Below, piece after piece: positions 45,079 to 55,131 of a stretch of DNA of 64,000 bases (position 1 is the stretch's first letter; the number at the start of each line of letters is the position of its first letter). A program made the position numbers and the translations under genes. The stretch is from Candidatus Levyibacteriota bacterium (GTDB taxonomy: Bacteria; Patescibacteriota; Microgenomatia; Levybacterales; UBA12049), in the NCBI GenBank assembly GCA_963722305.1, contig CAVRKE010000002.1:379878-443877 (forward strand), in the 5' to 3' direction. The notes under the pieces were generated by a model. That model saw only the letters and a program-made list of their open reading frames with translations, did no database searches and was not told the origin of the DNA.

Positions 45079-47538
45079 ATGGAAAAAGATAAAAAATTCA
45101 TTCTCTGGTTTGACGAAATCACTAAAGACGACATTCCGCTTGTCGGCGGCAAAAACGCCAATCTCGGCGAAATGTACCAAAAATTAGTCAACAGCAAAAA
45201 CGACACTTTCCCCGACGAACAAATTAGAGTCCCTTTTGGTTTTGCGGTTACCGCTTATTCATACCGCTATTTTTTGGAAAAAAATGAGTTGGATATAAAA
45301 ATTAAAGAAGCGTTGGAGGGACTTGATACCGGCAATATGCATGCGCTCGAAGCGGCCGGACTTAAGGTAAGAGATATGATTATCTCCGCCAAAATCCCCC
45401 AAGAAATGGAAGATGCAATCGTCTTAGCATATAAAGAACTGGCCGAAAAACTAAAGATTGACCAAGCGGATTTGGATGTGGCGGTCAGGAGTTCTGCTAC
45501 AGCCGAAGATTTGCCGAATGCCTCTTTTGCCGGACAACAGGAATCATATTTAAACGTCCACGGCAACCACAATGTTTTACATTCGATTAAACTGGCTTTC
45601 GCTTCACTATTTACCAACCGGGCAATTTCTTACCGGGTTGACGAACATTTTGACCATTTTCAGATTTCCCTTTCCTGTGCGGTACAAAAGATGGTACGAA
45701 GTGATAAAGGCTGCTCTGGTGTCATGTTTACTTTAGATACGGAGTCGGGATTTCGCAATGTCGTTTTGATTAACGGTTCCTGGGGCTTGGGGGAATTTAT
45801 TGTTAAGGGAATTGTTACACCGGACGAGTATATGGTTTTTAAGCCGACTCTTACTCAAGGCAAAAATGCGATCATTAATAAAAAATTAGGCAGCAAGGAG
45901 AAAAAATTAATCTATTCCCACGAAGGCACAAAACCAACCAAAGAAGTGCTTGTCCATGACAGCGACCGCCAAAAATTTGTTTTAAGCGATGAGCAGATTT
46001 TACAGCTTTCCCGCTGGGGCATGATTATCGAACAGCATTATGGGAAACCGATGGATATGGAGTGGGCCTTTGACGGCAATGATCTATACATTGTCCAAGC
46101 CCGCCCAGAAACCGTCCAGGCCAGAAAAGACTTAACGGTTCTGGAAGAATATAAATTATTGGAGCACGGCAAAGTTTTGGTAGAGGGTGCGGCGGTTGGG
46201 GCAAAAATTGGACAGGGTAAAGCCCGCTTTATTAAAGACCCTGACATGCTGGACCAGTTTCAACCGGGTGAAGTTTTAATTGCCGAAATTACCGACCCCG
46301 ATTGGGAACCGATTATGAAAAAAGCCAGCGCCATCGTTACCAATTCCGGCGGCAGAACTTCGCACGCGGCAATTGTCTCCAGAGAACTGGGTATTCCGGC
46401 AGTGGTTGGCACCGGCAATGCCACCAAAGTAATCTCAACCGGTACGGATATTACCGTTTGCTGCGCCGAAGGCGAGGATGGGAAAGTTTATGAAGGGCAT
46501 TTAAAATTTGAGGTTCAAAAAACCGACCTAAAAGATTTCCAGGCGCCGAAAACCAAAATTAAAATGATTGTGGCCGACCCGGAATTTGTTTTTAATTATT
46601 CCTTTATTCCCAATGAAGGCGTTGGTTTGGCAAGAGAGGAATTTGTAATCACTAATTTTATTAAGATTCACCCCAATGCCCTATTAAATTATGACAAGAT
46701 TGATGATAAGGAAGTTAAAAAAACAATTGACGAATTAACTGCCGGTTATGAAAATAAAGTTGACTATTATGTCCAAAAATTGGCCTATGGCATAAGCATT
46801 ATTGCCGCCGCCTTTTATCCACATGAAGTAATCCTAAGGTTTAGCGACTTTAAGACCAACGAATACTCTTCCTTAATTGGCGGGAAAGACTACGAACCGG
46901 CAGAAGAAAATCCGATGATTGGCTGGAGAGGTGCAAGCCGCTATTATGACCCCAATTTCGAAAGCGCATTTGCCTTGGAATGCCGGGCTGTCAAAAAAGT
47001 CAGGGAGGAAATGGGCCTTTATAATTTGCAGGTGATGATTCCTTTTTGCCGGACACCGGAAGAGGGACAAAAGGTTTTGGAAGTGATGGCTAAAAATGGG
47101 CTTCCCCATACCAAACATGAACACGCCAGAGAAGTTGCCAAGAAAGACGACATCGATGAAAAATTGCGGGTTTGGGTAATGGCGGAAATTCCTTCAAACA
47201 TTCTGCAGGTTGATGACTTTGCCGCACTTTTTGACGGGTTCTCAATCGGCTCTAATGATTTAACCCAGCTGACATTAGGCCTTGACCGCGATTCCAAAAT
47301 TGTGGCCCATATTGGCAACGAAAAAAGTAATTCGGTCAAAAAATTAATCCAGATGCTTATTTCCCGTGCCCATGAATTGGATATGCCTGTTGGAATTTGC
47401 GGACAGGGCCCGTCGGATTTTCCCGACTTTGCGGAATTTTTGGTCTCCGAGGGAATCGATTCAATTAGCCTTCAACCGGACAGCGTTTTAAAAACCTCAA
47501 TCAGGCTTAAAGAGCTTGAAGACCGCTTGGGGAAATAA
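45079..47538 (+). CDS. ppsA: Phosphoenolpyruvate synthase (pyruvate, water dikinase)
   Basis: 819 aa. Hallmark motifs VRSSATAEDLPNASFAGQQESYLNV, phospho-His loop GGRTSHAAIVSRELGIPAVVG, and C-terminal PEP-utilising domain GFSIGSNDLTQLTLGLDRDS with GICGQGPSD. Collinear with E. coli PpsA. Confidence 0.95.
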   Translation: MEKDKKFILWFDEITKDDIPLVGGKNANLGEMYQKLVNSKNDTFPDEQIRVPFGFAVTAYSYRYFLEKNELDIKIKEALEGLDTGNMHALEAAGLKVRDMIISAKIPQEMEDAIVLAYKELAEKLKIDQADLDVAVRSSATAEDLPNASFAGQQESYLNVHGNHNVLHSIKLAFASLFTNRAISYRVDEHFDHFQISLSCAVQKMVRSDKGCSGVMFTLDTESGFRNVVLINGSWGLGEFIVKGIVTPDEYMVFKPTLTQGKNAIINKKLGSKEKKLIYSHEGTKPTKEVLVHDSDRQKFVLSDEQILQLSRWGMIIEQHYGKPMDMEWAFDGNDLYIVQARPETVQARKDLTVLEEYKLLEHGKVLVEGAAVGAKIGQGKARFIKDPDMLDQFQPGEVLIAEITDPDWEPIMKKASAIVTNSGGRTSHAAIVSRELGIPAVVGTGNATKVISTGTDITVCCAEGEDGKVYEGHLKFEVQKTDLKDFQAPKTKIKMIVADPEFVFNYSFIPNEGVGLAREEFVITNFIKIHPNALLNYDKIDDKEVKKTIDELTAGYENKVDYYVQKLAYGISIIAAAFYPHEVILRFSDFKTNEYSSLIGGKDYEPAEENPMIGWRGASRYYDPNFESAFALECRAVKKVREEMGLYNLQVMIPFCRTPEEGQKVLEVMAKNGLPHTKHEHAREVAKKDDIDEKLRVWVMAEIPSNILQVDDFAALFDGFSIGSNDLTQLTLGLDRDSKIVAHIGNEKSNSVKKLIQMLISRAHELDMPVGICGQGPSDFPDFAEFLVSEGIDSISLQPDSVLKTSIRLKELEDRLGK

Positions 47539-47568
47539 TTTAAGTAGTATAATAATCTAAGACCAAAT

Positions 47569-49209
47569 ATGTCAGTTCTAATCTTAATTGTGGCTGTTAT
47601 TTTTTCCATTATCACCCTTTTTGCTAATTTTCCTACTGCCACTACGCTTAATCCTTTTAACGGTTATTTTATTTTCGGCCTAAATTTTATAAGAGAACAT
47701 TTTATTTTTTTCTTTCTGGGATTTGCTTTACTAGCTTTTGTCATGACCAGAATTTTAAAATTTGAAAAAAATCATCCTAAACACAAAAAATTATTTACAT
47801 ATTTTACTCAAAGTTTGGCGGTACTAATTATCGGAATTTTTGTTTCTTATCTGATTTTAATTGTGGTCGCGCTTTTAGAACTTAACCTATTGTCTTTAAC
47901 GGTAAACATCAACCCCCATTTTTTAGGGATTATTAATGACCGAAATAAAATTGTCAATGCCCTAAAAGCTAACAATCAACCACCGCTAATTATTGCTACC
48001 GATAATAATCAATATAAGGAGCTACAAGCAATTGCTTTAGCCACTACTGGCAAAACCAACTTTTACGGTGCCTCTATTCTTCCTTCTATTCCCTCTTTTT
48101 TTGTCTTACCAATTAAAAATTTGGGGTCTAGTATTTTGTTAGATCGAACCTTAATCATCTCCCAAATCAATCCCCAAGACTTACAGACTGTTAGTCCGGT
48201 TATTGGTTATTTATTTATCAAAAGTTATTTCCCCAACCGTTATATCAAATTTCCGCCAAAAATTTATATGATGGATGAAAACGAATATCAGAAATACCGC
48301 GACATCGATTTCAATAAAAAAATTGCCGACGTGACACTGGCGCTTAACCAAACCAATCAGGATATTGCTACCTCTTCCGCAGCAATCCAAGAAGATAAAA
48401 ACAATATTGCCTCTAATCAGAATTTTATTAAATCTACTTATGCCACCAGAGATAAACAGTACAACCAGTGCATGGCGGTTGGTCATTACCAAGGAAATAC
48501 TTTCTATCACACTAATTCCAAAGACTATTGTCTAAGCTTAGTGCAGTCACTTGACAACGCCACCCAAAACACTAGTGATGCCTTGGACTTTTGGAATAGC
48601 AAATTGGTGAGTGATCAAAACCAACTGGCAACTTCCAGGCTTTATGCTAATTTTTATAATCTCCAAGTACAATTAGGCGGTCTTCTTAAACAAAATATTC
48701 CGCATGAACTTGGGTCATTTTTCCCTCCCGACACCATCAAAATATTAATTAACGCCCAAAGCCCGCACGCTCTTGCCGACTATTTTGAAACGGTTGTCCA
48801 TGAGTATTTGCACTATGCCAGTAATATCGACGGGAAAAGTTTTACCGCCTCATTTTTCGAAGAGGGTTTAACCGAATATTTCGCCAGAAGAGCAATTCAG
48901 GATAATCTTGATGTTAGTACTAACTTAGGTTATCCGGTTTATGTTAAAATCATCGCTCAGATGACCAAGATCATTCCGGAGAGTGAGCTGGCAGATATTT
49001 ATTTTAGCAAAGACGAAATGGGCCTGCGGACGGCTTTAGACCAGGTTTATGGCGATAATTTTTATGAAGCTAATTTAATTAATTTTGAAACATTACAATA
49101 TACATCGGATCCAAAACAAATCTTAAAACTGGCCAATAACATTATGGCCAAAATTAACGGTACTCCTTTAAAAGAATCGGATATCATTAGCACTACCAGT
49201 AATTTGTAA
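47569..49209 (+). CDS. Hypothetical membrane-anchored protein with a HExxH (zincin-like) motif
   Basis: 546 aa. Three or four N-terminal hydrophobic helices. VVHEYLHY at about 48795-48818, followed by EEGLTEYF. No family recognised. Confidence 0.5.
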   Translation: MSVLILIVAVIFSIITLFANFPTATTLNPFNGYFIFGLNFIREHFIFFFLGFALLAFVMTRILKFEKNHPKHKKLFTYFTQSLAVLIIGIFVSYLILIVVALLELNLLSLTVNINPHFLGIINDRNKIVNALKANNQPPLIIATDNNQYKELQAIALATTGKTNFYGASILPSIPSFFVLPIKNLGSSILLDRTLIISQINPQDLQTVSPVIGYLFIKSYFPNRYIKFPPKIYMMDENEYQKYRDIDFNKKIADVTLALNQTNQDIATSSAAIQEDKNNIASNQNFIKSTYATRDKQYNQCMAVGHYQGNTFYHTNSKDYCLSLVQSLDNATQNTSDALDFWNSKLVSDQNQLATSRLYANFYNLQVQLGGLLKQNIPHELGSFFPPDTIKILINAQSPHALADYFETVVHEYLHYASNIDGKSFTASFFEEGLTEYFARRAIQDNLDVSTNLGYPVYVKIIAQMTKIIPESELADIYFSKDEMGLRTALDQVYGDNFYEANLINFETLQYTSDPKQILKLANNIMAKINGTPLKESDIISTTSNL

Positions 49210-49224
49210 GTCCCCTGTTTTGTT

Positions 49225-51537
49225 TTACGGAGTCGTAGTTGGGGTTATCTCCGATGTACCGGTTGGGGTTGGTGACAAGCTTGGAATCTTAGCGTTAGGA
49301 TTACTTTTAACCGGAGCGGGCACTGTTACTTTTGGAGGATTATTCAGGCTTGGAACGTTGACTCCCGAAACACTTCCACCCTGCAAGGCACTCGTTGTTT
49401 GAGTAGTCGGAGTTGTTTGTGCTTGCGCTGCCTGAGCTGTAGCTGTTGCTTTTAGTTGAGCTAAATACTTACTGGCTGCTTGATAATCCGCGCTACTGGG
49501 ATTTTTTTGCAATAAGGTTACTAATTGTTGGGCTACGGTGGTGGCGTTTGTTAAATCCCCGCCGTCTCTGTAGGCAATGGACAAGTTGTAATAGGCATTA
49601 GCATAATCCGGTTTTAAATTGGTGGCATCAGAGAAAAATCTCTCCGCCAAATCATATCTTTTAATCGAATAATATATTCCGCCAACCGTTAGTCTTAAGG
49701 AAGGATTAAGCGGATCCAACTGGATGGCATTACCATAAGCATTTAAAGAGAACGCCAAAGCATTTTGCGCCACCCCGGTAATATTCCTATAAACAGAGCC
49801 TAGGACTTCCCAGTTGCGCGCAGACCTTGGACTTAAGGTTACCGCCACTCTTCCCTCATTAATTGATTGGGCCAGTAAAGTTTGAATTGTGGCTTTATCC
49901 TGGGTTGTTAATGATCCTGCCGGATTTGTTTTGCTTGGGCCCTTTTGCACAGCCAAAGCGTTGGCTAAGGCAAAGTTTGTCTGTGCCATATCCACCCGAT
50001 ACAAATCCACTTCCGGATTAATAGACTCCGCTTTCTGTAAGTATTGATAAGTTAACGTACCATTCTTATTGGCTTGCGAAAGGGCAAGCCTATGGTAGTA
50101 GTCAGCCAGCGTAACATTGTATGTTTTGTATAACACTGGTACGGCTATTATCAAAAAGATGATGAAAACGACAATTGGAAAAAGATCGATTTGTTTATTA
50201 TTATTGGTTAAGGCCTTAATCCCAACAGAAAATTCTAATACTTTTTCCCTGATTGATCTTTGGGACATCATCAGAGCAGCAAATACAAACAAGGTAACCA
50301 CAAACGAAACTATGGTAGTGGCGTGAATAAACAGTAAGCCGATTGCCGTTAAACCGCTGACTGCCAAAGAACTTAAGATTACATGCGAGTCATCTTGAGA
50401 AGTGTCTACTGATGCTCTTGTCGACATATTCTTCCAGCTATTAACCGCCACCACAACACAGACAAATACTAAAGCAAGCAGCCCTAATATGCCCAGTGTT
50501 CCCAATTCTTGTAGAAATTCATTATTGGCCGAGTCGAACGAGAAATTCCAGAAAGCCAGTTGGTTAAACTCTAACGGTTTATAGGTGGAAAAGTTAAACA
50601 AATAGGTAGACGGACCGGTACCGATAAAAGGTGCATCTCGAAAAACCGACGCACTTATCTTCCATGAAGTCGCAAGGGGCAATTGGATTTCTTTGGGAAA
50701 ATTAGCTTCCAAACTTTGCACCGGATTACCCGGTAAAGGCAGGTAGGCCAGGGCGAATACTAAAGCCGTAGTTGCAACCGGAATCAAAAATAAACCTAAG
50801 GTTTGTCTTACTTTATGCGGTTTAGCGACAAACGCACAAACCCCAAACACCAGTAAAAGCAGCACGTAACTTGGTAATGAACCTGTCAAGACAATTATGG
50901 CGGAAAAAAGAATTGCCAATGGAATCGCCACTGCTACCGGTAAGTATTTATTGACTTTTGTTAAGGAAAAAAGCGGTAAAGGCAAAAGCATTAAGAGAAA
51001 TGCGACTGTCGAAAAAGATGCGCCGGTTGGTGTAAAGTTGACCGCTTTTGCAAAATCAAAAGGCAGAAAAAGTTTAAAGAAAGACATTAAACTTATTACG
51101 GCTATTATTGTTGCGCTCCCATAAAGCACATACAAAAAGCTCTTAACTTTATTTAAAGTTCTCAGCTGGGAAACAATTACAAAATACAATAGTATATATA
51201 TTACCCAGGAAACGGCAGAACCGTGTACGCTTGGAAAGTTTCCGTAAACCGCAGGATATTTAGTTGCACTAAAGACAGTCGAAATTATCACTACCACCAA
51301 TAGTAATAATAACGGCACATCCAAGGGGGTCCTGGTAATACTAATTTTACCTTTTAAAATCCAGGAAAAAATCCAAAGTCCGAGCAAAATTACGGTTGAG
51401 AAAACAAGAAAAATTAATTTTGGCATTTGATAAAATTCGGTCATTTGATTGAAGAATAAGAGAGGCGTTACTCCTGCAACTAGCAGTACTAAAAATGTAA
51501 TTATATTATCCAGGTAAACAGTAACTTTTTGTTTCAT
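49225..51537 (-). CDS. O-antigen ligase family (Wzy_C-like) polytopic membrane protein with C-terminal TPR repeats and a PT-rich tail
   Basis: 770 aa with at least 10 TM helices. Periplasmic-loop motif ASVFRDAPFIGTGPSTY resembles the Wzy_C R...G.G.G signature. TPR-like segments in the C-terminal half (DYANAYYNLSIAYRDGG). Low-complexity T/P/S tail. Confidence 0.55.
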   Translation of the reverse strand: MKQKVTVYLDNIITFLVLLVAGVTPLLFFNQMTEFYQMPKLIFLVFSTVILLGLWIFSWILKGKISITRTPLDVPLLLLLVVVIISTVFSATKYPAVYGNFPSVHGSAVSWVIYILLYFVIVSQLRTLNKVKSFLYVLYGSATIIAVISLMSFFKLFLPFDFAKAVNFTPTGASFSTVAFLLMLLPLPLFSLTKVNKYLPVAVAIPLAILFSAIIVLTGSLPSYVLLLLVFGVCAFVAKPHKVRQTLGLFLIPVATTALVFALAYLPLPGNPVQSLEANFPKEIQLPLATSWKISASVFRDAPFIGTGPSTYLFNFSTYKPLEFNQLAFWNFSFDSANNEFLQELGTLGILGLLALVFVCVVVAVNSWKNMSTRASVDTSQDDSHVILSSLAVSGLTAIGLLFIHATTIVSFVVTLFVFAALMMSQRSIREKVLEFSVGIKALTNNNKQIDLFPIVVFIIFLIIAVPVLYKTYNVTLADYYHRLALSQANKNGTLTYQYLQKAESINPEVDLYRVDMAQTNFALANALAVQKGPSKTNPAGSLTTQDKATIQTLLAQSINEGRVAVTLSPRSARNWEVLGSVYRNITGVAQNALAFSLNAYGNAIQLDPLNPSLRLTVGGIYYSIKRYDLAERFFSDATNLKPDYANAYYNLSIAYRDGGDLTNATTVAQQLVTLLQKNPSSADYQAASKYLAQLKATATAQAAQAQTTPTTQTTSALQGGSVSGVNVPSLNNPPKVTVPAPVKSNPNAKIPSLSPTPTGTSEITPTTTP

Positions 51538-51566
51538 AAAACAGATAATTCCCTACCGGATTTAAA

Positions 51567-51595
51567 GATATAAACATTAAAACAAAATTTCACAA
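51567..51595 (-). promoter_or_regulatory. Possible sigma70-like promoter for the Wzy_C/TPR gene (minus strand): TTGTGA, 17-nt spacer, TATATC. Divergent from the IS1595-fragment promoter.
   Basis: Read from the reverse complement of 51567-51595. ATG lies at 51537. Confidence 0.35.
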
Positions 51596-51627
51596 GACAG
51601 TCAATAAGCAATTTAGGTATTTATCCC

Positions 51628-51656
51628 TTGACAACACGTAATTTGCTTTAATATAC
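51628..51656 (+). promoter_or_regulatory. Canonical sigma70-like promoter (TTGACA, 15-17 nt, TAATAT/TATACT) immediately upstream of the IS1595 transposase fragment
   Basis: ttgacaacacgtaatttgctttaatatact lies 8-36 nt upstream of the ATG at 51664. Confidence 0.5.
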
Positions 51657-51663
51657 TTAATTT

Positions 51664-52128
51664 ATGAGCAATGAATTTTCTCTGGCTCATTTTGCCTCAC
51701 GTTTCCCAAATAATGACACCTGTCTTGAAGAAATTAGGCGATGGCGTTTCCCCGGAGGAATATATTGTAGCAACTGTCGGAAAACAACCAGACATTATAA
51801 ACTAACCGCTAGACCTGTCTATACCTGTAAATTTTGTCGCAGTCAAACTTCACCATTAGCGGATACCATTTTTGAAAAAACGACTACTCCTTTGAGACTT
51901 TGGTTTTATGCACTATTTCTAATGACACATACCAGAGCAAATATTTCTGTAAAAACGCTACAACGTGAGCTTGGTGTTACCTATAAAACCGCTTGGAGAA
52001 TGTATAATAATATTTTATCTTTGATGGAACAGAATAACGGTGATTTATTATCGGATGCACAGGTCCGCAAGTGGGTTTTCTTTAACAAGATCGAATTAAA
52101 AGTTGTCCAGAAAAAACAGGAATTATAA
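51664..52128 (+). pseudogene. IS1595-family (ISXO2-like) transposase, N-terminal zinc-ribbon/HTH fragment only. The DDE domain is missing.
   Basis: 154 aa. CSNCRK...YTCKFCRSQTSPLADTIFEKTTTPLRLWFYALFLMTHTRANISVKTLQRELGVTYKTAWRMYNNI matches the IS1595 N-terminal transposase zinc-ribbon domain. Full-length proteins are over 300 aa. Confidence 0.65.
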
Positions 52129-52426
52129 CTTTAAGGATGGACTGCGCGTTTTAACAGCTCAAAAAAATCATCTCTGGCATTTTTTCTTCCACCGTCTTTT
52201 AAGACTTCCTTAATTCTTGCGTCTTTTATCCTTAAACGTTTTTTTTGCATATGAACCTTTAATTTTTCTTTCCCCGGCTAATTATAAAAGCTGTTTTGTA
52301 AAAATCTCAGCAAAGTTTTTCCGGCAAATGAATTTTGGCAAGAGAATAACTGCCTTACCACCATTAATCTAACTATCAATCTAACTATACTACTTAGCGT
52401 GCGTTTTTTCAGCTATTATCTTTGGG

Positions 52427-52455
52427 TTGACAGATGATAAAAAACTTTTTATACT
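52427..52455 (+). promoter_or_regulatory. Canonical sigma70-like promoter (TTGACA, 17 nt, TATACT) for the aspartate-aminotransferase/PEP-carboxylase pair
   Basis: ttgacagatgataaaaaactttttatact lies with its -10 element 18 nt upstream of the ATG at 52473. Confidence 0.55.
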
Positions 52456-52472
52456 CTCAAGGGTTTTAATAA

Positions 52473-53636
52473 ATGCTTTCAACCAGGATAAAAAGACTAA
52501 TTCCTTCGCCCACTCTTTTGCTTGATGCTAAAGTAAAAGAATTACAAGCCAAACGCATAAAAATAATTAATCTTTCTTTGGGAGAACCCGATTTTGATAC
52601 TCCTTTAAGTGTAAAAAAAGCCGCCATAAAAGCCATCAACGAAAATTTTACCCATTACACCCAGACAAACGGCATTCCCAAACTCCGTTTGGCAATTGCC
52701 AAAAAATTTATTCAGGACAACGGAATTAATTATGCTCCACAAAATATTATTGTTGGAACAGGCAGTAAACAAATCCTATATGAAATTTTTCAGGTCATTT
52801 GTAATAAAAACGATGAAGTAATTATCCCTCTTCCAACATGGAGCACATATGTCGAGCAGGTTAAGCTGGCAGAGGCAAAACCGGTTTTTGTAAAACTTAG
52901 CCCCCCTTTTAAATTAACGGCAAAAGATATTAAGAAACGGTTAACAAACAAGACTAAAGCGATTGTTGTGAATAACCCAGCTAATCCAACTGGTGCTGTC
53001 ATAGACAAAGAGGAAATAAAAAAAATCGTAAAACTGGCAACCGAAAAAAACATTTTAATCATCTCCGATGAAATCTATGAAAAAATCAACTATGCCAAAA
53101 AACCTCTTTCTCCAGCGTCATTCGGAGAAAAGGCAAAGCAGTATACCATTACCGTCAACGGTGTTTCCAAAGCTTACGCCATGACCGGTTGGCGAATTGG
53201 CTATGCCGGCGGCCCCGAAGAAATTATTGCCAAAATGACTCAGTTGCAGGGCCAGATCACTTCAAATGCAAACTCGCTTGCTCAAAAAGCTGCCGTTGCA
53301 GCTTTATCTGGAAATCAATTACCGATAGAAACCATGACTGAAGAATTTTTGAAAAGACGGAATTTTGTCTACGGACAATTAAAAAACCTGCAACAACTTG
53401 AAGTTACTGCGCCGGAAGGGGCTTTTTATTTTTTCGTTTCAATTAAAAAACTTTTGGGGAAAAAATATAAAACCTCCAATGACTGGTGCAAAGCTTTACT
53501 GGAAAAGGAGAAAGTCGCAGTGGTTCCGGGCGAAGCCTTCCTCTACCCCGGCTATTTTCGTTTAAGTTTTGCCGCCTCGCTTGACAACTTAGAAAAAGCA
53601 CTAGAAAGGATAAAAAAATTCATTGAGGAAGCTTAG
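52473..53636 (+). CDS. Class I/II PLP-dependent aminotransferase, aspartate aminotransferase-like
   Basis: 387 aa. LSLGEPDFDTP near the N-terminus. PLP-lysine motif SKAYAMTGWRIGYAGGP, as in Thermus-type AspAT. Confidence 0.85.
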   Translation: MLSTRIKRLIPSPTLLLDAKVKELQAKRIKIINLSLGEPDFDTPLSVKKAAIKAINENFTHYTQTNGIPKLRLAIAKKFIQDNGINYAPQNIIVGTGSKQILYEIFQVICNKNDEVIIPLPTWSTYVEQVKLAEAKPVFVKLSPPFKLTAKDIKKRLTNKTKAIVVNNPANPTGAVIDKEEIKKIVKLATEKNILIISDEIYEKINYAKKPLSPASFGEKAKQYTITVNGVSKAYAMTGWRIGYAGGPEEIIAKMTQLQGQITSNANSLAQKAAVAALSGNQLPIETMTEEFLKRRNFVYGQLKNLQQLEVTAPEGAFYFFVSIKKLLGKKYKTSNDWCKALLEKEKVAVVPGEAFLYPGYFRLSFAASLDNLEKALERIKKFIEEA

Positions 53637-55131
53637 GAAAATTCCGGCAACCATGGTAACGCAACATCCCGATAATGCTTCTAAACCGTATTGGCATAGC
53701 GATAAATTTATCCGCAGCCAGTATGAAGCAGAAGAGGCATTCTTATCTTTTGCTAAACTTGGCGCCACAGAGTACAAATGGGATTGGGAAGGAAAATTGG
53801 TTGACGAATCGGTTTTGGAAAGGCTGTTTGGAGAACATTTTGCTTATTTTAAGCAGTTTCCGTTAGGCCGAGAAACATTTCTGACTTTCCGGCTCCCCAA
53901 CCCAAAAGTCGAGACGGAATTTCGTTTTGGCAGAGCTTTAATCAATCTGGCGTCGGCAGCCTCCATTGCCAGACATTTTCAACTTCCCTCTCCTCCGATT
54001 TTCGAAGTGATTTTACCAATGACCGAAACTGCAGAGGAAATGCTGGCAATTCAGGAAGCCTACCAACAGATTCATCTTTTAAAACACCCGTTGTTTAAAC
54101 TTGACGGTATCTTGACTAATTTAAGACTAATTCCTTTGTTCGAACAAGTCTCCACTATTATTAATTCCGATAAGATTTTAAAAAAGTATTTCTTCCTTTA
54201 CAAAAAAAGGTTCCATAAACTTCCTCCTTACTTTCGGCCATATGTAGCCCGCTCCGATCCGGCACTTAACTCAGGCATTGTCCCGACTATTTTAGCGATT
54301 AAAATCGCGCTCTCAAGATATCAGAGACTCGCAAAAAAAATCGGCATTCCTTTTTATCCAATTATTGGGGCGGCGGCTTTGCCTTTCCGGGGAGGGATTT
54401 CCCCACTGACAGTTGAGGAATTCGCCAACGAATATAAAGGCATCCGGACCACCACCATTCAAAGCGCTTTTCGCTATGATTTTCCTCAGAAACAGGTTAT
54501 CCGCGCCATCAAAAGACTCGAAGAATTATTGCCAAAACAAAAAACGGTAGAGATAACGCCTCTTGATGAAAAAAAGCTTATTAAAATAATTCCTGTTTTT
54601 GAAAAATATTATAGAGAAACTGTTGAAGAACTTGCACCTCTTATTAATAAAATTTCCATGTTTGTTCCGAAAAGAAGAGAACGCGTTCAGCATATCGGTT
54701 TGTTCGGCTACTCAAGAGGAGTAGGAAAAGTAAGGTTACCAAGAGCAATCCCCTTTACCGCTGCGCTTTATTCAATCGGGCTGCCGCCCGAACTGATTGG
54801 CACAGGCAGAGGAATCGCCAAATTAAACAATAAAGAACTGATACTGCTTGAAAAACATTACCTGAACATCAGAAACGACATGTTAAGAGCCGGCAGATTT
54901 TTAAATAAAGAAAACATTGTTCAGATGGCCGAAAAATATCCGTTTGCCAAAAGTATTATTGGAGATATTAATGTCATTGAAAAATATCTTGGCATCGAAT
55001 TAAAACCAAGCACTAAAACTGAAAAAACCCATTATGCTTTGACCAAAAAAATTTACGAAAAACTGCAAAACAATTGCTTGAATACCCACATTATTGAGAA
55101 AGCGGCGGTTCTTCGAAAAAGCTTAGGATAA
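53623..55131 (+). CDS. ppcA: Archaeal-type phosphoenolpyruvate carboxylase (the likely start is the internal ATG at 53653, giving MVTQHPDN)
   Basis: Collinear with Sulfolobus PepcA: TQHPDN, FLTFRLPNPKVE, FEVILPMT, ARSDPALN, YPIIGAAALPFRGG, IQSAFRYD, PKRRERVQHIGLFGYSRGVGKVRLPRAI, LYSIGLPPELIG, C-terminal RKSLG. Overlaps the aminotransferase stop. Confidence 0.9.
   Translation: MRKLRKIPATMVTQHPDNASKPYWHSDKFIRSQYEAEEAFLSFAKLGATEYKWDWEGKLVDESVLERLFGEHFAYFKQFPLGRETFLTFRLPNPKVETEFRFGRALINLASAASIARHFQLPSPPIFEVILPMTETAEEMLAIQEAYQQIHLLKHPLFKLDGILTNLRLIPLFEQVSTIINSDKILKKYFFLYKKRFHKLPPYFRPYVARSDPALNSGIVPTILAIKIALSRYQRLAKKIGIPFYPIIGAAALPFRGGISPLTVEEFANEYKGIRTTTIQSAFRYDFPQKQVIRAIKRLEELLPKQKTVEITPLDEKKLIKIIPVFEKYYRETVEELAPLINKISMFVPKRRERVQHIGLFGYSRGVGKVRLPRAIPFTAALYSIGLPPELIGTGRGIAKLNNKELILLEKHYLNIRNDMLRAGRFLNKENIVQMAEKYPFAKSIIGDINVIEKYLGIELKPSTKTEKTHYALTKKIYEKLQNNCLNTHIIEKAAVLRKSLG

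What the first reader, a model, noticed from the sequence alone, without database searches (positions are those of the whole stretch)
45079..55131. Compact pyruvate->PEP->oxaloacetate->aspartate node: ppsA, then translationally coupled AspAT and archaeal-type PEPC
PEP synthase lies 5 kb upstream of an operon in which an aspartate aminotransferase and an archaeal-type PEP carboxylase overlap by 14 nt and share a canonical TTGACA-17-TATACT promoter. Archaeal-type PEPC is sporadic in bacteria. Coupling it directly to the transaminase suggests a streamlined anaplerotic or aspartate-synthesis route in an organism that probably lacks a full TCA cycle.
Basis: partly seen in the sequence, partly recalled or inferred. 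Interest (0 to 1): 0.55.

Follow-up and report, generated by a model that had tools for sequence, protein, structure and literature searches.

The report
Aspartate-making aminotransferase–PEP carboxylase operon
A tiny-genome candidate-phyla-radiation (CPR) bacterium with no citric-acid cycle carries two overlapping genes that most likely turn phosphoenolpyruvate (PEP) plus bicarbonate into aspartate; both enzymes are of known kinds, and the same pairing recurs in many related bacteria.

Summary
ppsA (45079-47538), a class-Ib aspartate-type aminotransferase (AT; 52473-53636) and a small "archaeal-type" PEP carboxylase (PEPC; 53623-55131) are intact genes. The last two overlap by 14 nt if the TTG start is used, which N-terminal conservation favours. 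TTGACA-17-TATACT sits 17 nt before the aminotransferase ATG.

- **No TCA cycle found.** The 1.29-Mb, 91%-complete genome gave no hit for citrate synthase, aconitase, isocitrate dehydrogenase, succinate dehydrogenase/fumarate reductase, either fumarase class, malate dehydrogenase or malic enzyme.
- **One visible oxaloacetate consumer.** The co-transcribed aminotransferase is the only consumer I found. PyrB and PurA/PurB, which use aspartate, are present.
- **Conserved pairing.** A class-I aminotransferase lies in 35 of 81 PEPC loci and is adjacent in 28. Three aminotransferase subfamilies are involved. No other neighbour family exceeds 7 loci.
- **Not a recent archaeal import.** The PEPC sits in a large bacterial, CPR-dominated subgroup, separated by a long, fully supported branch from the archaeal/Firmicutes group.
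- **ppsA is a separate unit.** It lies 4.9 kb upstream. Its link is weaker and its direction is uncertain, because no pyruvate kinase was found.

This scan has already noted the same gene pair on other genomes. Verdict: an ordinary two-enzyme module, modest interest.

The parts
52427..52455 (+). sigma-70-like promoter hexamers TTGACA-17-TATACT, 17 nt upstream of the aminotransferase ATG
   Evidence: 11 of 12 match. A consensus match only; function is inferred.
52473..53636 (+). class-Ib aspartate-type aminotransferase, 387 aa, first gene of the operon
   Evidence: PF00155 E 1e-80. Best solved relatives are class-Ib AspATs 6f77, 5wmh, 1j32 and 1bkg, E 1e-80 to 1e-91. PLP lysine K233, R363, N171, D199 and Y202 are invariant and K99 nearly invariant in 13 orthologues. 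NCBIfam AspAT equivalog cut-offs are not reached (410 bits against 550).
53623..55131 (+). small ('archaeal-type') PEP carboxylase, 502 aa from TTG; overlaps the aminotransferase by 14 nt
   Evidence: PF14010 positions 1-493 of 493; TIGR02751 477 bits against a cut-off of 146. 3ODM is the only solved relative. TQHPD, RSDPA, LPFRGG and the C-terminal R.S.G are invariant in alignments A1 and A2.
45079..47538 (+). canonical three-domain PEP synthase (PpsA), 819 aa; a separate transcription unit 4.9 kb upstream and a possible supplier of PEP
   Evidence: ppsA is adjacent to PEPC in L013 and L041. The ~820-aa type occurs in 4 of 7 PEPC-positive relatives against 1 of 34 PEPC-negative ones.
47569..52128 (.). 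intervening genes that are not part of the module: orf546 (+, no family hit), a Wzy_C+TPR membrane protein (-, 49225-51537) and an IS1595 transposase N-terminal fragment (+, 51664-52128)

Best explanation
A bicistronic operon encodes a class-Ib aspartate aminotransferase and a small PF14010-type PEP carboxylase.

- Step 1 (inferred): PEPC irreversibly carboxylates PEP with bicarbonate to oxaloacetate.
- Step 2 (inferred): the aminotransferase converts oxaloacetate to L-aspartate, presumably with glutamate as amino donor.
- Coupling: the 14-nt overlap couples translation of the two genes.
- Why it is needed: the genome has no TCA cycle, malate dehydrogenase or malic enzyme. The pair is therefore the only visible de novo source of oxaloacetate-derived aspartate, and the aminotransferase is the only visible consumer of oxaloacetate.
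- Use of aspartate: it feeds aspartate carbamoyltransferase (pyrimidines), adenylosuccinate synthase and lyase (AMP), and protein synthesis.
- ppsA: the canonical PEP synthase 4.9 kb upstream may supply PEP from pyruvate, but it is a separate unit and this step is the least certain.

What is shown: gene identities, the overlap, the gene content of the genome and the recurrent gene neighbourhood. What is inferred: enzyme activities, substrate specificity, direction of flux and use of the promoter.
For: - Gene identities and overlap.
- Families not found in the 91%-complete own genome: citrate synthase, Ldh_1_N for MDH/LDH, aconitase, Iso_dh, full-length FAD_binding_2 for SDH/FRD/NadB, class II fumarase or aspartase, class I fumarase, malic enzyme.
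- Aspartate users present: PyrB at 308 bits against a cut-off of 237; PurA, PurB and ArgH.
- The window aminotransferase is the only full-length class-I/II transaminase. The other PF00155 gene lies where an earlier, unchecked scan note places kbl.
- Neighbourhood census of 81 PEPC loci: the aminotransferase family is in 35 and within 300 bp in 28. The next most common neighbour family is in 7.
- Three aminotransferase subfamilies are involved: class-Ib AspAT-like, PRK07568 and PRK06855. They occur in several orientations, and the PEPC tree needs at least 17 changes of state.
- Orthologous aminotransferase-then-PEPC pairs with -4 to -14 nt overlaps occur in 7 of 11 type-A loci.
- The aminotransferase and PEPC trees of these pairs show no supported conflict.
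- PurA is present in 7 of 7 PEPC-positive relatives against 18 of 34 PEPC-negative ones.
Against: - No enzyme data exist for any member of this bacterial PEPC subgroup that I could find.
- The aminotransferase does not reach NCBIfam's AspAT equivalog cut-offs, and its nearest solved relatives include bifunctional aspartate/prephenate enzymes.
- No glutamate dehydrogenase was found, so recycling of the amino donor is unexplained.
- In the six PEPC-positive genomes among the closest relatives, no aminotransferase lies within 1.5 kb of PEPC. The same-genus genome G002 has PEPC but no orthologous aminotransferase.
- Many PEPC-negative relatives keep PyrB and PurA, so the module is optional.
- The genome is 91% complete, so absences are not proof.
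Confidence: 0.75

Rival explanations
1. The three genes work: imported or fermentative pyruvate is raised to PEP by PpsA and then carboxylated and transaminated, so ppsA belongs functionally to the module.
For: - ppsA is directly adjacent to PEPC in L013 (PEPC-ppsA-AT) and L041 (ppsA-PEPC).
- The five best-scoring, ~820-aa canonical PpsA genes among 41 relatives lie in G000, G008, G009 and G020 (all PEPC-positive) and G027.
Against: - In the window ppsA is a separate unit, with three unrelated genes and a strand switch in between.
- ppsA is near PEPC in only 2 of 80 other loci.
- No pyruvate kinase was found. PpsA may therefore run from PEP to pyruvate as the glycolytic exit, or serve gluconeogenesis.
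- Enolase can supply PEP directly.
Confidence: 0.4
2. The aminotransferase acts catabolically or on another substrate (aspartate breakdown, or a prephenate, aromatic or alanine transaminase). The oxaloacetate made by PEPC has another fate, such as export to a host, as proposed for Peribacteria.
For: - Anantharaman et al. 2016 (PMC4736985) listed AspAT under amino-acid degradation and speculated that oxaloacetate is exported.
- The nearest solved relatives include bifunctional aspartate/prephenate aminotransferases.
- AspAT equivalog cut-offs are not met.
Against: - With aspartate breakdown, both enzymes would produce oxaloacetate, and no consumer is visible in the genome.
- Non-orthologous aminotransferases were repeatedly recruited next to PEPC, which fits a shared pathway better than unrelated roles.
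- Residues that bind dicarboxylate substrates in class-Ib AspATs (K99, R363) are conserved (the residue roles are from my own knowledge of Thermus AspAT).
Confidence: 0.12
3. The adjacency in this genome is an accident of horizontal transfer into a variable region and implies no functional coupling.
For: - The pair sits between an IS1595 fragment and an accessory region with tRNA-Asn and IS elements.
- PEPC is patchy: 6 of 24 genomes in the same family and 0 of 16 in the other families of the order.
- The same-genus PEPC is only 51% identical.
Against: - The adjacency recurs in 28 of 81 loci with three aminotransferase subfamilies.
- The two genes overlap.
- Their GC content (0.39-0.40) equals the genome mean of 0.405.
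Confidence: 0.05

Closest known systems
Archaeal-type PEP carboxylase (atPEPC/PpcA; Pfam PF14010, TIGR02751; structure 3ODM from Clostridium perfringens; Ettema 2004 and Patel 2004 as cited in PMC8100219)
   Same: - Full-length match to both family models.
- About 57 kDa, against about 100 kDa for bacterial/plant PEPC.
- Conserved TQHPD, RSDPA and LPFRGG motifs and C-terminal glycine.
   Different: - About 30-35% identical to the archaeal/Firmicutes group.
- Separated from that group by the longest internal branch of the tree (0.89, support 100).
- It belongs to a subgroup of CPR, Nitrospirota, Armatimonadota and a few others, in which I know of no characterised member.
Class-Ib aspartate aminotransferases (Thermus thermophilus AspAT 1BKG/1BJW, Phormidium 1J32, Rhizobium AatA 6F77, plant prephenate/aspartate AT 5WMH)
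   Same: - Alignment over nearly the whole length, E 1e-80 to 1e-91.
- PLP lysine and substrate-binding residues conserved.
   Different: - Below NCBIfam equivalog cut-offs.
- Encoded immediately upstream of, and overlapping, a PEPC gene.
PEPC noted in Peribacteria genomes (Anantharaman et al. 2016, PMC4736985)
   Same: A CPR bacterium with PEPC, no TCA cycle and an aspartate aminotransferase in the genome.
   Different: [quoted passage not shown] Here, and in 34 other loci, the aminotransferase gene lies near PEPC, which points to aspartate synthesis as the use.

Membership tests
atPEPC (PF14010 / TIGR02751) | Full-length match above the curated cut-offs | tested here: met
   PF14010 450.6 bits (cut-off 25), positions 1-493 of 493; TIGR02751 477 bits (cut-off 146)
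atPEPC (PF14010 / TIGR02751) | Subunit of about 55-60 kDa, without the regulatory regions of bacterial/plant PEPC | tested here: met
   502 aa; size criterion from PMC8100219
atPEPC (PF14010 / TIGR02751) | Conserved catalytic core motifs (TQHPD His, RSDPA, FRGG loop, C-terminal Gly) | tested here: met
   Invariant both in the close alignment A1 and in the distant alignment A2, which holds representatives of the archaeal-side clade
   Falls in a 28-row, fully supported CPR clade, on the other side of a long 100%-supported branch from methanogen, Halobacteriota, Bathyarchaeota, Nezhaarchaeota, Clostridia and Actinobacteria sequences
atPEPC (PF14010 / TIGR02751) | PEP carboxylase activity | not testable with these tools
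   Needs an enzyme assay
Class-Ib aspartate aminotransferase | Fold-type I PLP enzyme with the Schiff-base lysine and the alpha-carboxylate arginine | tested here: met
   PF00155 272 bits; K233 and R363 invariant in A3
Class-Ib aspartate aminotransferase | Equivalog-level match to curated AspAT models | tested here: not met
   NF041091 410 bits against a cut-off of 550; NF004769 359 against 617. These are the best hits but fall below the cut-offs.
Class-Ib aspartate aminotransferase | Lysine in the GxKQ motif that binds the distal carboxylate (Lys109 of Thermus AspAT; role from my own knowledge) | tested here: met
   K99 nearly invariant in A3 and aligned with the GGKQ of 6f77
PEP synthase (PpsA) | Three domains and equivalog-level scores | tested here: met
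   PF01326, PF00391 and PF02896 all present; NF005057 1145 bits against 598
   None found in the 91%-complete genome. Succinyl-CoA synthetase and 2-oxoglutarate oxidoreductase were not tested specifically. One POR_N gene is present.

The most novel reading that the evidence does not exclude
The aminotransferase-PEPC pair, sometimes with ppsA, is a mobile 'aspartate-autonomy' cassette. It moves horizontally among CPR lineages and frees otherwise host-dependent cells from imported aspartate. The bacterial PEPC subgroup may also have properties unlike the characterised archaeal/Firmicutes enzymes, for example product inhibition by aspartate, or physical channelling of labile oxaloacetate to the aminotransferase.
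Probability: 0.25. Interest if true: 0.5.

Novelty: new member of a known kind. Interest (0 to 1): 0.33.

Why it matters
CPR bacteria are thought to depend on hosts for most building blocks, and the role of PEPC in genomes without a TCA cycle has been called unclear (PMC4736985). The recurrent pairing with a transaminase gives a simple answer that an assay can test: oxaloacetate is made only to become aspartate, which nucleotide synthesis consumes stoichiometrically. It also marks a large, uncharacterised bacterial branch of the small-PEPC family. The module is a minority trait, about 5% of sampled genomes of the phylum, so it may flag lineages with more metabolic independence.

Tried and rejected
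- I could not inspect the contigs of the closest PEPC homologues (80% identity, P0002-P0004).
- **Complex prediction.** Complex prediction of aminotransferase plus PEPC gave no verdict (score 0.00). It counts neither for nor against binding.
- **Fusion search.** The search for longer fused forms found only P0417 (949 aa, PEPC domain only). No aminotransferase-PEPC fusion turned up. This is weak evidence, and an earlier scan note of such a fusion was not reproduced here.
- **T-box leaders.** Earlier scan notes report these on similar operons. None is present in the window's leader, none in 12 related loci at gathering threshold, and the core motif occurs in only 1 of 93 loci.
- **tRNA genes next to PEPC-aminotransferase pairs.** They are Gly, Phe and others, unrelated to aspartate.
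- **GC content.** There is no compositional sign of recent transfer.
- **Literature.** Searches found no paper on this operon in CPR.
- **Naming deep representatives.** The listing of cluster members gave few names. A profile search gave the names used in the tree.
Full report
**What is there.** The region holds the following ORFs.
- ppsA (45079-47538, +).
- An unassigned 546-aa ORF 30 nt downstream (47569-49209, +).
- A Wzy_C+TPR membrane protein on the opposite strand (49225-51537).
- A 154-aa IS1595 transposase N-terminal fragment (51664-52128, +).
- An aminotransferase (52473-53636, +).
- A PEP carboxylase (53623-55131, +).
- A 116-aa ORF, then a GT4 glycosyltransferase on the opposite strand.

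ppsA has all three PEP-synthase domains and passes two equivalog cut-offs. The PEPC matches PF14010 and TIGR02751 end to end. Its only solved relative is 3ODM.

The aminotransferase is a class-I/II PLP enzyme. Its best solved relatives are class-Ib aspartate aminotransferases, some of them bifunctional with prephenate. It stays below NCBIfam's AspAT equivalog cut-offs. The PLP lysine, the carboxylate-binding arginine and the GxKQ lysine are conserved among 13 orthologues.

**Overlap and promoter.** The aminotransferase stop is at 53634-53636 and the first start codon of the PEPC frame is TTG at 53623, an overlap of 14 nt. The database version of this protein starts at ATG 53653 (P0001, 492 aa). 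However, the peptide RKIPAT encoded between the two candidate starts is conserved in homologues, and the Pfam model begins at that Ile. I therefore favour TTG. TTGACA-17-TATACT lies at 52427-52455. This is a consensus match in a region where such matches are only slightly more frequent than in shuffles.

**Host genome.** The window lies in a 1.29-Mb, two-contig genome, 91% complete and 1% contaminated. Named PEPC homologues and earlier scan notes point to Levybacteria/Microgenomates, which belong to the CPR.

Family searches of the whole genome gave the following.
- Not found, TCA cycle and oxaloacetate consumers: citrate synthase, Ldh_1_N (MDH/LDH), aconitase, Iso_dh, full-length SDH/FRD/NadB flavoprotein, class I or II fumarase, malic enzyme.
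- Not found, other steps: pyruvate kinase, glutamate dehydrogenase, aspartate-semialdehyde dehydrogenase, asparagine synthase, argininosuccinate synthase.
- Present: enolase, one POR_N oxidoreductase, aspartate carbamoyltransferase, adenylosuccinate synthase and lyase, argininosuccinate lyase.

The window aminotransferase is the only full-length class-I/II transaminase. The other PF00155 gene lies where an earlier, unchecked scan note places kbl. So oxaloacetate has one visible consumer, encoded in the same operon, and aspartate has visible consumers in nucleotide synthesis.

**Phylogeny.** About 3,700 proteins at 90% clustering resemble the query, and those listed are 60-80% identical to it. 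The whole family collapses to about 550 clusters at 50% identity.

A 76-row maximum-likelihood tree has a long, fully supported branch.
- On one side are methanogens, Halobacteriota, Bathyarchaeota, Nezhaarchaeota, Clostridia, Halanaerobium and Actinobacteria.
- On the other side are several CPR clades, Nitrospirota, Armatimonadota, Nitrospinota, Ignavibacteriota and one Micrarchaeia sequence.

The names came from a profile search. The window protein sits in a 28-row clade with 100% support, made of Levy-, Roizman-, Gottesman-, Doudna-, Pacei- and Saccharibacteria-labelled sequences. Some rows in that clade carry labels such as 'uncultured Gammaproteobacteria', which I suspect are unreliable.

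The protein is therefore an ordinary member of a bacterial subgroup, not a recent archaeal import. Distribution is patchy:
- 22 of 401 evenly sampled genomes of the phylum;
- 6 of 24 genomes in the same family;
- 0 of 16 in the other families of the order.

The same-genus copy is only 51% identical.

**Gene neighbourhood.** I called ORFs in 80 PEPC loci (up to 6 kb of flank on each side) plus the window and clustered them. The class-I aminotransferase family is present in 35 of the 81 loci and lies within 300 bp of PEPC in 28. The next most frequent neighbour family is in 7 loci. The other neighbours are unrelated housekeeping genes.

The aminotransferases fall into three subfamilies.
- **Class-Ib AspAT-like.** In 11 loci including the window it is 53-59% identical to the window enzyme and lies upstream on the same strand. 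Seven of these have overlaps of 4-14 nt. Four more distant members lie downstream or upstream.
- **PRK07568 type.** Usually directly downstream of PEPC.
- **PRK06855 type.** Found in Peregrinibacteria/Gracilibacteria, downstream or convergent.

On the PEPC tree the presence or absence of a neighbouring aminotransferase needs at least 17 changes. The aminotransferase and PEPC trees of the type-A pairs show no supported conflict. Repeated recruitment of non-orthologous transaminases is the strongest evidence here that the two enzymes work in one pathway.

**ppsA.** It is adjacent to PEPC in only two other loci, L013 and L041. Among 41 relatives, the five best-scoring ~820-aa canonical PpsA genes lie in four PEPC-positive genomes and one PEPC-negative genome. 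Kin are not independent, so this is suggestive only.

Most relatives instead carry a ~755-aa PpsA-like gene. In G002 it lies near enolase. The own genome's enolase-linked paralogue lacks the phospho-histidine domain. With no pyruvate kinase found, the canonical PpsA could equally serve as the PEP-to-pyruvate step. I therefore treat 'pyruvate to PEP' as plausible but unproven.

**Comparison with what is known.** The review of the PEP-pyruvate-oxaloacetate node describes atPEPC as also present in several bacteria, without allosteric activators, and inhibited competitively by aspartate in C. perfringens (PMC8100219). PEPC was noted in Peribacteria genomes, where the use of oxaloacetate was judged unclear (PMC4736985). 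I found no paper describing the aminotransferase-PEPC operon.

This scan has noted the same pair on several other genomes, along with reported fusions and T-box leaders. I tested for a T-box and a fusion here and found neither.

**Verdict.** The core of the interpretation, a two-step PEP-to-aspartate route in an organism without a TCA cycle, is well supported by genome content and comparative genomics. The 'archaeal' flavour and the inclusion of ppsA are overstated. These are known enzymes in a sensible, recurrent arrangement, of modest interest.

Noticed in passing
L092:1236-3215 (G000:C1:189235-191214) and L093:1285-3204 (G000:C2:200784-202703): Two PpsA-like paralogues each lack a domain. 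One sits between phosphoglucose isomerase and enolase and has PPDK_N plus the PEP-binding domain, but no phospho-histidine mobile domain. The other has PPDK_N plus the mobile domain, but no PEP-binding domain. No pyruvate kinase was found in the genome.
   Followed up: partly
G002:C1:392003-395469 and the other relatives listed: Most relatives carry a ~755-aa PpsA-like gene. In G002 it lies about 1.7 kb from enolase. It may be the lineage's substitute for pyruvate kinase.
   Followed up: no
L011, L014, L019, L023-L025, L030 and others; also L010, L012, L015, L020: Contigs carrying CPR-type PEPC, one of them 936 kb long, are labelled Gammaproteobacteria, Limnocylindrales, Eisenbacteria, Sulfotelmatobacter or Weeksellaceae. 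They sit inside CPR clades of the tree, so the labels are probably unreliable or the contigs mis-binned.
   Followed up: no
G020:C4:66055-71378: In one relative, adenylosuccinate synthase (purA) lies about 2.5 kb downstream of PEPC on the same strand.
   Followed up: no
P0138, P0143 (about 720 aa) and P0417 (949 aa): PEPC homologues carry an N-terminal extension of about 215 aa, or a C-terminal extension of about 500 aa, with no Pfam match.
   Followed up: partly
L026:9023-10138 and five other PEPC loci: A glutamine-synthetase-like gene lies within 6 kb of PEPC in 6 of the 80 other PEPC loci. It is not adjacent.
   Followed up: no
L089:931-2433 (G000:C1): Argininosuccinate lyase is present, but no argininosuccinate synthase was found in the genome.
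   Followed up: partly
window 47569-49209: A 546-aa ORF lies 30 nt after ppsA and has no Pfam or NCBIfam match.
   Followed up: partly
L017:12658-12729: An AdoCbl-II riboswitch match (55.8 bits) in a Patescibacteria contig.
   Followed up: no
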